Source of the DNA: Isurus oxyrinchus
Lineage: Eukaryota
Direction: 5' to 3'
DNA length: 64,000 bases
Assembly: GCA_026770705.1 (NCBI GenBank)
Contig: JANJGN010000048.1
Span: forward strand, 1,736,001-1,800,000
Of the stretch, positions 1 to 64,000 are shown in pieces (position 1 is the first letter of the stretch; the number at the start of each line of letters is the position of its first letter). A program made the position numbers.

Positions 1-3000
1 AGAACCCCATCTTCCACTTTGGCATCTTCCAGCCTTATGGACTCAGCACCTAATTCAACAGCTTCAGAGCATGAACTCTGTCCTCCATTTGTATTATTTT
101 CCCCGATTTTCAGTCTATATCGTGTTCTCATGTTTTGCTTTCAGGCAGCACTGACCTCTATTCTCCTATTACCACATTCTGATATTTTACTTTCAGACAG
201 CTCTGAGCTTTACTCTGCTAGTAGCACCTGCTCTGGACCAATGCTTTGTTCCTTTGCTTTTTACTATTCCCCCTTTCCTTGCATTTTGTTCCATGGCATC
301 TTTGGAATTTAATCTCCCCAAACCTCTAATCAATTCATGACCTTTTTTTTGCTCCACCTTCCCCCTCACCTTGTGTTCAGCAGCAGAAACGCCAGCACAT
401 TCCACCACTTCTCATTTCAGAAGAAGTGTTATATTGAAGGTGAAACCTTAACTCTGTTTCTCTCTCCAAAGAGGCTGCTAGACCTGCTGAGATTTTTCCA
501 CAGATATTTATTAATTTTTATTTTTGCCGTTAAGTGCCTGTTCTGTGAAGAAATTCCATGTATCTGCCATTTCCCAGTTATAGAGGTAATTGTGCATCCT
601 TTACCCTTGTCCATGCCAAGTATGGGTTGCTTATGAATTTCCTATGGTTTCTTTTCGATTGGTTAACAGGGGCTGCATCCCACTTGGAGAATTTGAAACA
701 TGGAACTCTGCAAATGATGGGCAAATGTTTTGAATGCGGCAACACATTCAGGGACTTTGGAGAGGAGAGGGAGATTGGAGATTTGGGTGGTGTTTTGCAG
801 TTGCAGTGAATTCATTATCACTACATTTTCCAGAGAAGTGACATGACAAAACCAGTTTGAAACAGAAGGTCGTGCCTCAAGAGAGAACCGTGAACAATAT
901 GGACTGACCTGGGAGCGAGGATGGGAGGTTGCATGGTCAGCAATTTAGTGGGAACAGGACCCAGTGGACAGGAGGAGGGGCTCATTGACAGGATGAGTTC
1001 CTTTGTTCTCGGAGCAGCTCAATTGCGCCCTCCCTGGACAGTCACTGACATCTACATTTCCCTGCCTGACAGCACAAGCCATAAAGTGGGGGTGGGGGGC
1101 GGGGGGCGGGGGGGGGGGGGGGGGAGGTGGGAGGAACTGGCCGGTTCCATGTAGAAGTGTTAAAATTCTTGCTGCTGTTGTTTTCAAGTCTCCGCACCGT
1201 GCATTAAAAAAGGAAACTCGTGGCCTTAAAGATGTAAAGCAGCTGTGAAACTGATTGGAAACTTTCCATCGTGAGAGGGGTTCATGGGCAGCGAGTTCAG
1301 AGGAAAGAAAATATAAGGAATTTGAGATGCAGTAAAGGGAGGCGAGAAGTCACATAGTGCCGTGGCACAGGGAGAGCATCAGTGAAGATATCTAGGGGCC
1401 AATGGTTTGATGGTAATTTGGTGAGGCCAGGCGAAGAGGGATTTTGGAAGAGAGGTGGGAATACAGTGAGATTGCCAAAGAAGGAGAAAGGGTGAGACAA
1501 ATAAAAGGAAGCACCAAGGTGTGACGTAGTTGCAAATGCCAGACTAGCGCCATGACAGGCTGGGCTCAGTGGATAGGGGAGGGGGAAGTGGAGGGTTCAT
1601 TCAAAGGGAAGGTGACATCCACCCATGTCTATGTTTCCTATATGGCCAAGGCCCCAAAATAATCACCAACAATCTCGATACAGTCACCCTGATCTCCATA
1701 CAGTCACCCTGATCTCCATACAGTCACTCTCAATCTCGAGGCAATCATCCCTAACCATGATACAATCACTCCCAATCTCGATACAATCACCCCGATCTCG
1801 ATACAATCACCCCGATCTCGATACAATCACCCCATCTCGATACAATCACCCCGATCTCGATACAATCACCCCGATCTCGATACAATCACCCCGATCTCGA
1901 TACAATCACCCCGATCTCAATACAATCACCCCATCTCGATACAATCACCCCGATCTCGATACAATCACCCCGATCTCGATACAATCACCCCATCTCGATA
2001 CAATCACCCTCATTCTCGATACAAACTCTTCCAATAGGTTCAAGAATGTCAAATCCATCCAACATATCAACGCTGGGAACTGTTTCTCCCCATTGACTCT
2101 GTCCAGTCCCCTCATGTTTTTGAACGTCTCTATCAAACCCCCTGTCAACATTCCCTCCCCAATGCAGAGAATTGTCCAGCCCTTTTTTGAATTTTTATTT
2201 CTGCCTTAAGTGCCTGTTCTGTGAAGAACTTCCATGTATCTGCCATTTCCCAGTTATAAAGGTCATTGTGCATCGCATACCCTTGTCACTGCCACATCTG
2301 AAGTCGCTGCTGAATTTGCAATGGCCTCTTGGCGATTGGGTATCAAAGGCTGAATCCCACGTAGACTTTGGAGGGGAGAGGGAGTTTGAAGATGGGAGCG
2401 GTGTCTTTCAGCTGCAGAGAGTTCATTATCTCTACATTTTTTAGTGAAGTGACAGGACTAAACAGGTTTGAAACGAATGATGGTGCCTCAAGAGAGAACC
2501 CTGAAAAATATTGACTGACCTGGGAACCAGGATGAGAGGTTTGAGGGGTCAGAATTTTAGTGGGAGCAGAGCCCAGGGAACAAGAGATGGGGCTCATGGA
2601 AAGGATGAGTTCGCCTGTTCCTGGAACAGCTCAACAGCGTCCTCCCTGAAGAGTCACTGACTGCAACTCCTGCATCCCCCCTCTGGAATGCACGTCTCCA
2701 CACGTTTCAGAACTAATAGGCCTAAAGACGTGTTTCTGGACAGAAAGAGGGTGATAATAATTAAGCCCTTGGAAGCTGAAATGAAAACAGAAAGGGATGA
2801 AACACTCGTCAGAACTGGCAGCATCAGTGGACAGAGAAGCAGGTGGTTTTCAGAGCCAAATATGCGTCTTCTTCCGAACAGAGGAGCGAGATAGTGGTGT
2901 GGTGGGATCTGTGCTGCTCACAAAATCACAGAAGAACAGCTGGGGCTATGGAGGTGAGGGATAGCTTAGATAGCAGAGCAGATTGAATGAAAAAGTTGTC

Positions 3001-63000: not shown

Positions 63001-64000
63001 GAACATCTCTGCTCAGTCCACAAACATGGCGTCGCCCCGATTGCAATTTCAGTCCAGCATCTTGCTCTCATGCTCACATTTCCGTCCTCCGCCTGATGCA
63101 ATATTCCAGTGAAGCCCAATAAATTCCTCAGAAATGAACCTCACCTTCAAATTTGGCGTCTTCCAGCCTTATGGAATCAAAACTGATGTCAACATCTTCA
63201 GTCAATGAACTCTGTCCTCTATTTGTATTATGTTCCCCGAATTTCAGTCTATATCATTTTCTGATATTTTGCTTTCAGGCAGCAGAGACTTTTATTCTCC
63301 TATTACCACATACTGCTATTTTGCTTTCAGAAAGCTCCGACCTTTAATCTGCTATTATCACCTGCTCTGGACCAATGCTTTGTACCTTTACTCATACCAC
63401 ACACCCTCAAAAGCTTAATCCCACCTGGAGAACTTCAAATAGGAAGCACGTGAAATGAGGGGAAAATGTTTCTAATTCGGAAACACATTCGTGGACTTTG
63501 CAGAGGAGAGGGACTTTGGAGATGGGAGCGGTGTCTTTCAGGTGCATAGAGTTCATCATCTCTGCATTTTTTACTGAAGTGACAGGACTATGCAGGTTTG
63601 AAACGAATGATGGTGCCTCAAGAGAGAACCCTGAACAATATTGACTGACCTGGGAACCAGGATGAGAGGTTTGAGGGGACAGAATTTTAGTAGGAGCAGA
63701 GCACAGGGAACAAGATGTGGGGCTCATGGAAAGGTTGCGTTCCCCTGTTCCTTGAACAGCTCAACAGCGCCCTCCCTGAAGAGTCACTGACAGCAACTCC
63801 TGCAGCCCCCTTTTGAAATGCACGTCTTCACACGTTTCAGAACTAATAGTCCTAAAGAAGTGTTGCTGGAGAGAAAGAGGGTGATAACAATTTAGCCCTT
63901 GGAAGCTAAAATGAAAACAGAAAGAGTTGAAAAACCCGTCAGAACTGACAGCTCCAGTGGAGAGAGAAGCAGGTGGTTTTCAGAGCCGAATGTGGGTCTT

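What the first reader, a model, noticed from the sequence alone, without database searches (positions are those of the whole stretch)
2200..64000. Single-isoacceptor tRNA-Ala(CGC) macrosatellite whose 3.94-kb spacer is built mostly of dead transposons
Seen: ~16 units, each with exactly one 72-bp tRNA-Ala in a spacer made mostly of Penelope, SINE, LINE and MITE-like relics. Known: tandem tDNA arrays exist in vertebrates (e.g. Xenopus, zebrafish, the human chr1 VNTR) but often carry several tRNA types per unit. Inference: one tRNA locus with its TE-littered neighbourhood was amplified as a block, boosting dosage of the tRNA reading the usually rare GCG codon, possibly as an oocyte/embryo-type array or a Pol III/TFIIIC chromatin-organising domain. 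The family may be undescribed, but I cannot establish that.
Basis: partly seen in the sequence, partly recalled or inferred. Interest (0 to 1): 0.65.

Follow-up and report, generated by a model that had tools for sequence, protein, structure and literature searches.

The report
Decaying tandem array of tRNA-Ala genes
A 3.9-kb block carrying one alanine tRNA gene has been copied head to tail across the whole window, and the tRNA copies look transcribed but individually dispensable and decaying rather than kept as a dosage boost.

Summary
The tandem array is real. It has 13 full units and one cut unit, with a period of 3,915-4,023 bp. Each unit holds one minus-strand 72-nt tRNA-Ala (14 of 14 found by ARAGORN and by Rfam). 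Four older, rearranged units fill positions 1-10766, so the array starts before 2200. These hold one sub-threshold tRNA and one 7-nt stub.

The tRNA copies are not uniform. Only 4 of 14 equal the array consensus. One has anticodon TGC, two carry 10 changes, and the B box is exact in 8 of 14.

Among units, the tRNA body changes 1.6-1.8 times faster than the spacer. The 20 nt upstream change about 5 times faster, while -19 to -29 is invariant. This shape matches the published signature of transcription-associated mutagenesis, but here without strong purifying selection.

TE content is only partly confirmed. I found an APE-type LINE tail relic, a 21-bp minisatellite and a 403-nt foldback, together about a quarter of the spacer. 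I found no Penelope or SINE evidence.

Verdict: a new member of a known kind (tDNA tandem repeats). The dosage-boost reading is not supported. Organism, copy number and expression stayed unchecked.

The parts
1..64000 (-). Whole tandem array as seen in the window (tRNA sense is the minus strand). It runs off the right end and is still unit-derived at the left end.
   Evidence: blastn of a reference unit against the window; spacings; identity matrix
2..10766 (-). Old, decayed left edge. Four rearranged or deleted unit relics (2-2158, 2360-4886, 4887-7360, 7361-10766), 80-91% identical to the reference unit.
4887..4958 (-). Degraded tRNA-Ala with 8 differences from the consensus, 4 broken pairs and T-to-G at the base before the anticodon. 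Below the Rfam cut-off.
   Evidence: (27.6 bits vs 29)
7361..7367 (-). 7-nt stub of a tRNA 3' end at a deletion junction (reference positions about 7-493 are missing)
10767..10838 (-). tRNA-Ala(CGC), 64.5 bits, 3 differences, 1 broken T-stem pair, ancestral G45
14707..14778 (-). tRNA-Ala(CGC), 64.5 bits, same variant as the copy at 10767
18645..18716 (-). tRNA-Ala(CGC), equal to the array consensus, 67 bits, no broken pair. Start of the reference unit 18645-22584.
22585..22656 (-). tRNA-Ala(CGC), consensus copy, 67 bits
26526..26597 (-). tRNA-Ala(CGC), 51.3 bits, T8C and a T-stem mismatch
30466..30537 (-). tRNA-Ala with anticodon TGC (C-to-T at the first anticodon base), 8 differences, B box altered, 45.9 bits
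34405..34476 (-). tRNA-Ala(CGC), 58 bits, 2 differences, 1 broken pair
38386..38457 (-). tRNA-Ala(CGC), consensus copy, 67 bits
42327..42398 (-). tRNA-Ala(CGC) relic with 10 differences, A and B boxes altered, no run of four T within 30 nt downstream, 38.6 bits
46309..46380 (-). tRNA-Ala(CGC), 57.5 bits, 1 T-stem mismatch that also breaks the B-box match
50251..50322 (-). tRNA-Ala(CGC) relic with the same 10 differences as the copy at 42327, 38.6 bits
54192..54263 (-). tRNA-Ala(CGC), 64.2 bits, one T-loop A-to-C change inside the B box
58107..58178 (-). tRNA-Ala(CGC), 59.3 bits, 1 broken T-stem pair
62130..62201 (-). tRNA-Ala(CGC), consensus copy, 67 bits. Its unit is cut by the end of the window.
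18717..18736 (-). Inner 5' flank (-1 to -20) in the reference unit. This is the substitution hot spot of the unit: 1.1-1.2 changes per site against 0.22-0.26 in the reference part.
18735..18745 (-). Invariant upstream block at about -19 to -29 (reads gcttcattatg in tRNA sense). Candidate TATA-like TFIIIB site (inference).
   Evidence: 0 changes among 13 units
18634..18644 (-). 3' trailer with a run of four T (Pol III terminator-like) starting 8 nt after the tRNA. Present in 13 of 14 copies.
   Evidence: read
19774..19904 (.). Partial second copies of the inner part of the foldback arms (75-80% identical)
20692..21094 (.). 403-nt foldback (MITE-like palindrome). Arms 20692-20888 and 20898-21094, 76% complementary.
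   Evidence: DNA fold -139.5 kcal/mol, z -19.8. Weak sub-threshold miRNA-family matches at its centre.
21677..21958 (.). 21-bp minisatellite, about 13 copies per unit (10-17 across units). A 20-bp form lies in the old edge at 1672-2024.
22008..22175 (-). Relic of the C-terminal coding tail of an APE-type LINE ORF2. The same relic in another unit (45731-45892) was used for the searches.

Best explanation
This is a birth-and-death macrosatellite. A roughly 3.94-kb genomic block held one ordinary, self-contained tRNA-Ala(CGC) gene and a few repeat relics. It was amplified head to tail, most likely by unequal crossing-over, including later duplication of two-unit blocks. The tRNA genes have been loaded and transcribed by Pol III in the germ line, which makes the tRNA locus the mutational hot spot of each unit. 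Because the copies are redundant, each one is under little or no purifying selection, so they are drifting into variant and dead tRNA genes.

Shown: the array, its gradient of age, the unequal state of the copies and the shape of the substitution profile. Inferred: the mode of amplification, Pol III transcription, and relaxed selection as the cause of the decay.
For: Array and block amplification:
- 14 tRNA-Ala at a period of about 3.94 kb.
- Whole units, spacer included, are 92.0-99.8% identical.
- The left-edge relics are 80-91% identical, as expected for array edges that no longer take part in exchange.
- There are near-identical neighbours (99.1%, 99.7%) and an alternating two-unit pattern: the units at 38386 and 46309 are 99.8% identical, and the units at 34405, 42327 and 50251 are 94.5-97.4% identical.

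Self-contained gene:
- The cloverleaf with G3-U70 is present in 14 of 14 copies.
- A run of four T lies within 12 nt downstream in 13 of 14.
- The B box is exact in 8 of 14.

No strong constraint on the copies:
- tRNA pi is 0.076 against 0.049 for the spacer. 20 of 72 sites are segregating against 16.8% in the spacer (binomial P 0.013). Without CpG columns it is 15 of 63 (P 0.022).
- Parsimony changes per site are 0.389 for the tRNA against 0.220 for the reference part. A re-phased alignment of 14 segments gives 0.412 against 0.263.
- 10 of 14 copies differ from the consensus, and 9 of 14 have at least one broken pair.

Transcription signature:
- The inner 5' flank has 1.10-1.20 changes per site, about 5 times the reference. 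Only 4 of 3941 20-nt windows reach it, and it is joint top of 3208 windows in the re-phased alignment.
- The 3' flank at 11-40 nt has 0.60-0.73 changes per site.
- Positions -19..-29 have 0 changes.
- Thornlow et al. 2018 (passages) report inner 5' flanks about 4 times and inner 3' flanks about 3 times more divergent at human tRNA genes. The peak lies 10-15 nt upstream, with a dip where TBP binds, and the effect is stronger at active genes. [quoted passage not shown]
Against: - No expression, Pol III occupancy or methylation data could be consulted, so transcription is inferred from a substitution pattern among 13-14 related paralogues that share a tree and may exchange sequence by conversion.
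- Other 20-nt windows are nearly as hot. In the re-phased alignment one at -1583 ties the 5' flank, and others reach 0.9-0.95.
- The tRNA body is not an extreme outlier. 290 of 3941 72-nt windows have as many changes.
- Transitions do not dominate at the locus: 34 transitions against 36 transversions, or 30 against 34 on clean columns. Thornlow et al. report an excess of C>T and G>A. The whole unit has the same odd ratio, about 0.77.
- The body changes less than its flanks (0.39 against 1.1 and 0.73), so some selection or conversion on the body is not excluded.
- 4 copies remain perfect and 8 keep exact A and B boxes, so a useful active subset is possible.
- Assembly of long arrays can be wrong in copy number, and read depth could not be checked.
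Confidence: 0.6

Rival explanations
1. Adaptive dosage array. The block was amplified and kept because more tRNA-Ala(CGC) is needed, for instance as an oocyte- or embryo-type gene set.
For: - The promoter parts and terminator are intact in many copies: B box exact in 8 of 14 and a run of four T in 13 of 14.
- 4 copies are identical and flawless.
- The flank profile suggests transcription.
- The body changes less than its flanks.
Against: - The tRNA body is more variable than the spacer, at 1.6-1.8 times.
- 10 of 14 copies deviate, with 1-10 changes that include stem breaks, T8C, T-loop changes and an anticodon change.
- Even the commonest form carries a derived variable-loop T that the oldest copy and three other variant forms (five copies) lack.
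- GCG is the CpG-containing, rarest Ala codon in CpG-depleted vertebrate genomes (general knowledge), and the window's CpG observed/expected ratio is 0.48.
Confidence: 0.15
2. Silent passenger. The tRNA gene was caught in a neutral satellite and is not, or is no longer, transcribed, as with the methylated and silent clustered tDNAs of Arabidopsis.
For: - The tRNA copies are decaying.
- CpG columns vary 3.5 times more than others (pi 0.141 against 0.041), and CpG observed/expected is 0.48. Both fit a methylated region.
- Hummel et al. 2020 (passages) show clustered tDNAs that are silent despite canonical Pol III elements.
Against: A purely neutral passenger should change at the spacer rate. Instead the locus shows a sharply localised profile: about 5 times the rate at -1..-20, no change at -19..-29, and 2.3-3.3 times the rate at 11-40 nt downstream. 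The excess remains without CpG columns.
Confidence: 0.17
3. Chromatin boundary or organiser. The array works through TFIIIC and/or CTCF binding rather than through its tRNA, as proposed for the human 1q23.3 tRNA repeat.
For: - B boxes recur every 3.94 kb: 9 exact matches against 1.02 expected by chance.
- There is a precedent in Darrow and Chadwick 2014 (abstract).
Against: - No CTCF-like core motif: 0 matches at up to 1 mismatch (motif recalled).
- 6 of 14 called tRNAs have lost the exact B box, and there are no B boxes outside the tRNAs.
- No conserved spacer island stands out apart from the short -19..-29 block.
Confidence: 0.05
4. Assembly artefact. A shorter locus was inflated by the assembler.
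For: Long arrays of near-identical units are hard to assemble. Some neighbours are 99.7-99.8% identical.
Against: - Units differ by 0.2-8% in a tree-like way, with more shared than private variants: 291 shared against 177 singletons in the clean reference columns.
- Unit lengths differ.
- The left edge is ordered by age.
Confidence: 0.03

Closest known systems
Human 1q23.3 tRNA variable-number tandem repeat (Darrow and Chadwick 2014, PMC4041453; abstract and section 12 read)
   Same: A kb-scale unit repeated head to tail. tRNA genes make up a small part of the unit. The unit also holds a partial LINE, other TE fragments and simple repeats.
   Different: The human unit is 7.3 kb with five tRNA genes (Leu, Gly, Glu, Gly, Asp) on both strands. 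Its units are 98% identical, and it is GC-rich and CTCF-bound. Here the unit is 3.94 kb with one tRNA-Ala, units are 92-99.8% identical, GC is 44-48%, and no CTCF-like motif is present.
Arabidopsis clustered tDNAs: Pro, Cys and Ser-Tyr-Tyr clusters (Hummel et al. 2020, PMC7544208; passages)
   Same: Tandem clusters that can hold a single tRNA type. They have canonical Pol III elements yet are dispensable.
   Different: They are plant loci, reported as transcriptionally silent and CG-methylated. Here the flank substitution profile points to transcription, and methylation is only inferred from CpG decay.
Xenopus laevis 3.18-kb tDNA repeat (recalled; no paper on it came up), and the zebrafish and Xenopus tRNA clusters surveyed by Bermudez-Santana et al. 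2010 (PMC2888827; passages)
   Same: Vertebrate tRNA genes in parallel orientation in large tandem or clustered sets.
   Different: Those clusters are mostly heterogeneous, with several tRNA types per unit or cluster. Here there is one isoacceptor per unit.
Transcription-associated mutagenesis at tRNA loci (Thornlow et al. 2018, PMC6130373; passages)
   Same: Substitution peaks in the 20 nt upstream and in the 3' flank, dips near -25, and is roughly twofold higher in the tRNA body.
   Different: That work compared orthologues and SNPs, and active genes there have conserved bodies. Here the comparison is among paralogous array units, the body is not conserved, and the transition excess is not seen.

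Membership tests
Tandem tDNA repeat (tRNA-gene macrosatellite) | Head-to-tail repeats with a kb-scale unit | tested here: met
   13 spacings of 3915-4023 bp; units 92.0-99.8% identical over their full length
Tandem tDNA repeat (tRNA-gene macrosatellite) | Each unit carries a recognisable tRNA gene | tested here: met
   14 of 14 units starting at or after 10767 pass ARAGORN and the Rfam gathering score. Of the 4 old edge relics, 1 has a sub-threshold tRNA, 1 has a stub and 2 have none.
Tandem tDNA repeat (tRNA-gene macrosatellite) | Copy number varies between individuals, and the tRNAs are transcribed by Pol III | not testable with these tools
   No reads, populations or expression data were available. 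There is only an indirect substitution signature.
tRNA-derived SINE | A tRNA-like head runs on into a tRNA-unrelated body and LINE-like tail, with no terminator directly after the head | tested here: not met
   A run of four T lies within 12 nt after the 72-nt tRNA in 13 of 14 copies. The cloverleaf is full with G3-U70 in 14 of 14. No further tRNA-like or 5S-like heads were found at E<=1 in 1-22700.
Penelope-like element relic | Reverse transcriptase and GIY-YIG nuclease coding remnants | tested here: not met
   Pfam on all six frames read with X at stops gave no RT or nuclease family, either for a full unit or for 1-2402. Relatives of the only coding relic carry APE-type endonuclease domains instead.
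APE-type LINE (non-LTR retrotransposon), 3' relic | Homology to the ORF2 C-terminal tail of elements with RVT_1 plus an Exo_endo_phos endonuclease | tested here: met
   The 74-aa window piece gave 10 hits at E<=1e-3, best 3.3e-8, and they share the same motif. Searching longer proteins with hit P0006 gave 11 hits. 6 of those carry PF00078, and 3 of those 6 also carry PF14529 (2 of them PF03372 as well). The direct match to a 934-aa ORF2 is weak (E 0.017, residues 823-850), so the link is transitive. The direct match to a horn-shark protein model is 46% identity over 54 aa, E 3e-14.
APE-type LINE (non-LTR retrotransposon), 3' relic | RT or endonuclease domain present in the window | tested here: not met
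   none found. Only the tail survives.
MITE / foldback element | Long terminal inverted repeats that fold into a hairpin | tested here: met
   197-nt arms, 76% complementary, 9-nt loop; -139.5 kcal/mol, z -19.8
MITE / foldback element | Target-site duplication, and many dispersed copies in the genome | tested here: inconclusive
   No clear duplication was seen at the ends. There is one partial extra copy inside the unit. Genome-wide copies are not testable.
CTCF-bound tDNA boundary array (1q23.3 type) | Conserved CTCF core motif in each unit | tested here: not met
   0 matches at up to 1 mismatch in 64 kb. The motif was typed from recall.
Oocyte-type Pol III multigene array | Stage-specific expression | not testable with these tools
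   No expression data
Oocyte-type Pol III multigene array | Gene copies kept alike by selection or homogenisation | tested here: not met
   10 of 14 copies differ from the consensus, and the tRNA body is more variable than the spacer

The most novel reading that the evidence does not exclude
The array is a germ-line-active Pol III 'nursery'. Heavy transcription of redundant copies drives unusually fast mutation of the tRNA genes themselves. The array therefore continually throws up new isodecoders and even anticodon switches (one copy already reads TGC instead of CGC), some of which could be recruited. On this reading, tandem tDNA arrays would be engines of tRNA gene turnover rather than dosage devices.
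Probability: 0.12. Interest if true: 0.55.

Novelty: new member of a known kind. Interest (0 to 1): 0.3.

Why it matters
Tandem tRNA-gene repeats are known in several eukaryotes, so the array itself is not a new kind of thing. What is useful is that its units serve as an internal clock. Comparing paralogous units separates mutation input from selection at a tRNA gene without any outside data. Here that comparison shows a hot spot with the shape published for transcribed tRNA genes, together with decay of the gene body. If expression data confirmed it, such arrays would be handy natural experiments on transcription-associated mutagenesis and on how redundant tRNA genes die or change identity. 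For genome annotation, it warns that most of the tRNA-Ala(CGC) genes counted in such an array should not be taken as a working gene dose.

Tried and rejected
- Pfam on ten spacer ORFs gave nothing meaningful. Pfam on six-frame readings with X at stops gave no TE domain, for the reference unit and for 1-2402.
- The word-index homologue search with the LINE-tail piece against longer proteins found none: 56 candidates, none scored.
- The same tool with the 177-aa ORF 20939-21472(+) found none among 165 candidates. That ORF and its antisense partner are probably chance or compositional.
- The Rfam permissive scan of 1-22700 gave only the tRNAs and sub-threshold miRNA-family matches at the foldback centre: 35.6 bits against a cut-off of 72.9, and 30 bits against 100. 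I read these as hairpin look-alikes, not miRNA genes.
- The CTCF-like motif gave 0 matches.
- Literature searches for a described single tRNA-Ala(CGC) tandem array or for shark nuclear tRNA arrays found none in the held library. This is weak evidence of absence.
- PMC11574265 (zebrafish tRNA pools; passages) holds nothing on tandem arrays.
- No repeat library (Dfam or Repbase) was available, so about three quarters of the spacer remains unassigned.
- I considered and rejected a tRNA-derived SINE head, because a terminator follows the tRNA directly.
- I considered a Dada-type tRNA-targeting DNA transposon, seen only in search listings. No transposase domain was found in the unit.
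Full report
**What is there.**
The window has no N. ARAGORN finds 14 tRNA-Ala genes, all on the minus strand. Rfam RF00005 finds the same 14 above its gathering score and nothing else. Their start-to-start spacings are 3940, 3938, 3940, 3941, 3940, 3939, 3981, 3941, 3982, 3942, 3941, 3915 and 4023 bp. A reference unit (18645-22584) aligns over its full length to every later and earlier unit back to 10767, at 92-100% identity. 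It also aligns in rearranged pieces at 80-91% over 2-10766. The array therefore fills the whole window and runs off its right end.

The edge holds a degraded tRNA at 4887-4958 (27.6 bits, below the cut-off of 29). This copy has 8 differences and 4 broken pairs. A 7-nt stub of a tRNA 3' end sits at a deletion junction near 7361.

**State of the tRNA copies.**
The 72-nt consensus folds into a cloverleaf with no broken pair, and G3-U70 is kept in 14 of 14 copies. Only 4 of 14 copies (18645, 22585, 38386, 62130) equal the consensus. The others carry 1-10 differences, and 9 of 14 have at least one broken stem pair. The copy at 30466 has anticodon TGC through a C-to-T change plus 7 further changes. 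The copies at 42327 and 50251 share 10 changes. Rfam scores run from 67 down to 38.6 bits.

An exact B-box match (motif recalled) remains in 8 of 14 called copies and in the old copy at 4887, and nowhere else in the window. A run of four T lies within 12 nt downstream in 13 of 14 copies. This, together with the complete cloverleaf, argues for a self-contained gene and against a SINE head.

It is in 9 of 14 called copies. G is in the other 5 and in the oldest copy, so T is probably derived within the array (polarity inferred).

**Array history.**
The 13 complete units are 92.0-99.8% identical. Neighbours can be near-identical: 10767/14707 at 99.1% and 18645/22585 at 99.7%. From 34405 to 54191 two unit types alternate. 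The units at 38386 and 46309 are 99.8% identical, and the units at 34405, 42327 and 50251 are 94.5-97.4% identical. This pattern points to duplication of a two-unit block of about 7.9 kb. Variants are more often shared than private (291 against 177 in clean reference columns). This speaks against an assembly artefact, but read depth could not be checked.

**Is the tRNA conserved inside the array?**
It is not. Among the 13 full units, nucleotide diversity is 0.076 in the tRNA against 0.049 in the spacer. 20 of 72 tRNA sites are segregating against 16.8% of spacer sites (binomial P 0.013). Without CpG columns it is 15 of 63 (P 0.022). Parsimony changes on the unit tree are 0.389 per site in the tRNA against 0.220 in the part more than 200 nt away.

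The profile around the tRNA is sharply shaped:

| Region | Changes per site |
|---|---|
| 20 nt upstream | 1.10 |
| 21-40 nt upstream | 0.35 |
| 1-10 nt downstream | 0.40 |
| 11-40 nt downstream | 0.73 |

Positions -19 to -29 show no change at all. Only 4 of 3941 20-nt windows reach the value of the inner 5' flank. Of the four hottest non-overlapping 20-nt windows, three lie within the tRNA locus as defined here (-40 to 47 nt downstream), and the fourth (28-47 nt downstream) lies within it as well.

My first alignment cut the units at the tRNA. I therefore realigned 14 tRNA-centred segments and dropped columns within 5 of a gap. The result was 1.20 for the inner 5' flank, 0.412 for the tRNA, 0.60 for 11-40 nt downstream and 0.263 for the reference part. 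The inner 5' flank was joint top of 3208 windows.

Three results count against over-reading this profile:
- One distant window ties the 5' flank, and a few others reach 0.9-0.95.
- The tRNA body is only in the top 7.4% of 72-nt windows (290 of 3941).
- The units are related paralogues that may exchange sequence.

**Reading of that profile.**
Thornlow et al. 2018 (PMC6130373; passages) report several features of human tRNA genes:
- The most divergent sites lie 10-15 nt upstream, with a dip where TBP binds near -25.
- The effect is stronger at active genes.

The array shows the same flank shape and a body excess of 1.6-1.8 times, but no long-term conservation of the body. I read this as Pol III loading and transcription in the germ line, combined with weak selection on each redundant copy.

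Two points do not fit neatly. The transition excess reported for transcription-associated mutagenesis is absent (34 transitions against 36 transversions at the locus). The whole unit also has an unusually low transition to transversion ratio of about 0.77, in shared and private variants and at CpG and non-CpG sites alike, which I cannot explain. CpG columns vary 3.5 times more than others, and CpG observed/expected is 0.48. Both fit a methylated vertebrate-like genome (inference).

**The spacer.**
There are no long intact ORFs. Ten ORFs gave no Pfam family. Six-frame readings with X at the stops gave no reverse transcriptase, nuclease or transposase, for a full unit or for 1-2402. Four repeat or TE marks can be shown:

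1. **LINE tail relic.** A coding relic lies on the minus strand at about 22008-22175 in the reference unit.
   - The 74-aa copy at 45689-45910 hits 10 library proteins at E<=1e-3, best 3.3e-8. These share one motif but have no Pfam name.
   - Searching longer proteins with one of them (P0006) gave 11 hits. 6 of these carry RVT_1, and 3 of those 6 also carry Exo_endo_phos_2 (2 of them Exo_endo_phos as well).
   - The relic is therefore the C-terminal tail of an APE-type LINE ORF2, not of a Penelope element.
   - The direct match to a 934-aa ORF2 is weak (E 0.017). The direct match to a horn-shark protein model is good (46% identity over 54 aa, E 3e-14).
2. **Minisatellite.** A 21-bp minisatellite of 10-17 copies follows the relic directly.
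3. **Foldback.** A 403-nt foldback lies at 20692-21094. No clear target-site duplication was seen.
4. **Partial foldback copies.** Partial copies of the foldback's inner arms lie at 19774-19904.

Together these cover about 1.0 kb of the roughly 3.87-kb spacer, by my sum of the coordinates. No SINE head (tRNA- or 5S-like) appears at E<=1 in 1-22700. The remaining three quarters could not be classified without a repeat library.

**Organism.**
The named relatives of the LINE tail come from a horn shark, a skate and a penguin. The distribution of the unit elsewhere, and its copy number, therefore stayed unchecked.

**Comparison with what is known.**
- The human 1q23.3 tRNA repeat has a 7.3-kb GC-rich unit with five tRNA genes, 98% identity between units, a partial LINE, an LTR fragment, microsatellites and a conserved CTCF site (PMC4041453; abstract and section 12). 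Here there is one tRNA per 3.94 kb, more divergence between units and no CTCF-like motif.
- Arabidopsis has tandem clusters of single tRNA types that are methylated and silent despite canonical Pol III elements (PMC7544208; passages).
- A survey of eukaryotes found mostly heterogeneous, parallel clusters in zebrafish and Xenopus (PMC2888827; passages).
- The Xenopus 3.18-kb repeat with several tRNA genes is recalled only. The search did not return a paper on it.
- Five searches found no description of a single tRNA-Ala(CGC) tandem array or of shark nuclear tRNA arrays in the held library. Subscription journals and supplements were not searchable, so this is weak evidence that the array is undescribed.

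**Verdict.**
The dosage-boost part is contradicted by the state and the substitution rate of the tRNA copies. The Pol III part gains indirect support. The chromatin-organiser part has no support from motifs and cannot be tested here.

The locus is a new member of a known kind. Its modest added interest is as a natural read-out of mutation against selection at a redundant tRNA gene.

Noticed in passing
whole array, 10767-62129: Differences between units are rich in transversions. The transition to transversion ratio is about 0.77 in clean spacer columns (204:264). It is similar for shared and private variants, and at non-CpG sites it is 239:326. This is unusually low for vertebrate neutral DNA and is unexplained.
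   Followed up: partly
34405-54191: Two unit types alternate, with lengths of 3981/3982 against 3941/3942 bp. The units at 38386 and 46309 are 99.8% identical, and the units at 34405, 42327 and 50251 are 94.5-97.4% identical. This is a two-unit higher-order repeat of about 7.9 kb.
   Followed up: partly
34405-38385: By its spacer this unit groups with the heavily mutated units at 42327 and 50251. Its tRNA, however, carries the derived T45 and lacks their 10 changes. This suggests a mosaic made by crossing-over or conversion near the tRNA.
   Followed up: no
20939-21472 (+) and 21034-21684 (-), and the same place in other units: Two overlapping open frames of 177 and 216 codons lie on opposite strands and are kept open in several units. 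They have no Pfam family, and the 177-aa frame has no relative in the word-index search. They are probably compositional rather than coding.
   Followed up: partly
20844-20942 and the same place in other units: The centre of the foldback gives sub-threshold Rfam matches to the plant/insect-type miRNA precursor families mir-2733 (35.6 bits, cut-off 72.9) and MIR4221 (30 bits, cut-off 100). I take these as hairpin look-alikes.
   Followed up: no
1672-2024, 4031-4266, and once per unit from 9899: The minisatellite changes in period and copy number along the array. The oldest edge has a 20-bp unit with 17.6 copies. Later units have a 21-bp unit with 10-17 copies, sometimes with 42- or 63-bp higher periods. 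Most unit-length differences probably lie here.
   Followed up: no
18735-18745 and the same place in other units: An 11-nt block at about -19 to -29 upstream of the tRNA shows no change among 13 units, although it abuts the hottest stretch of the unit. It is a candidate TATA-like TFIIIB site.
   Followed up: partly
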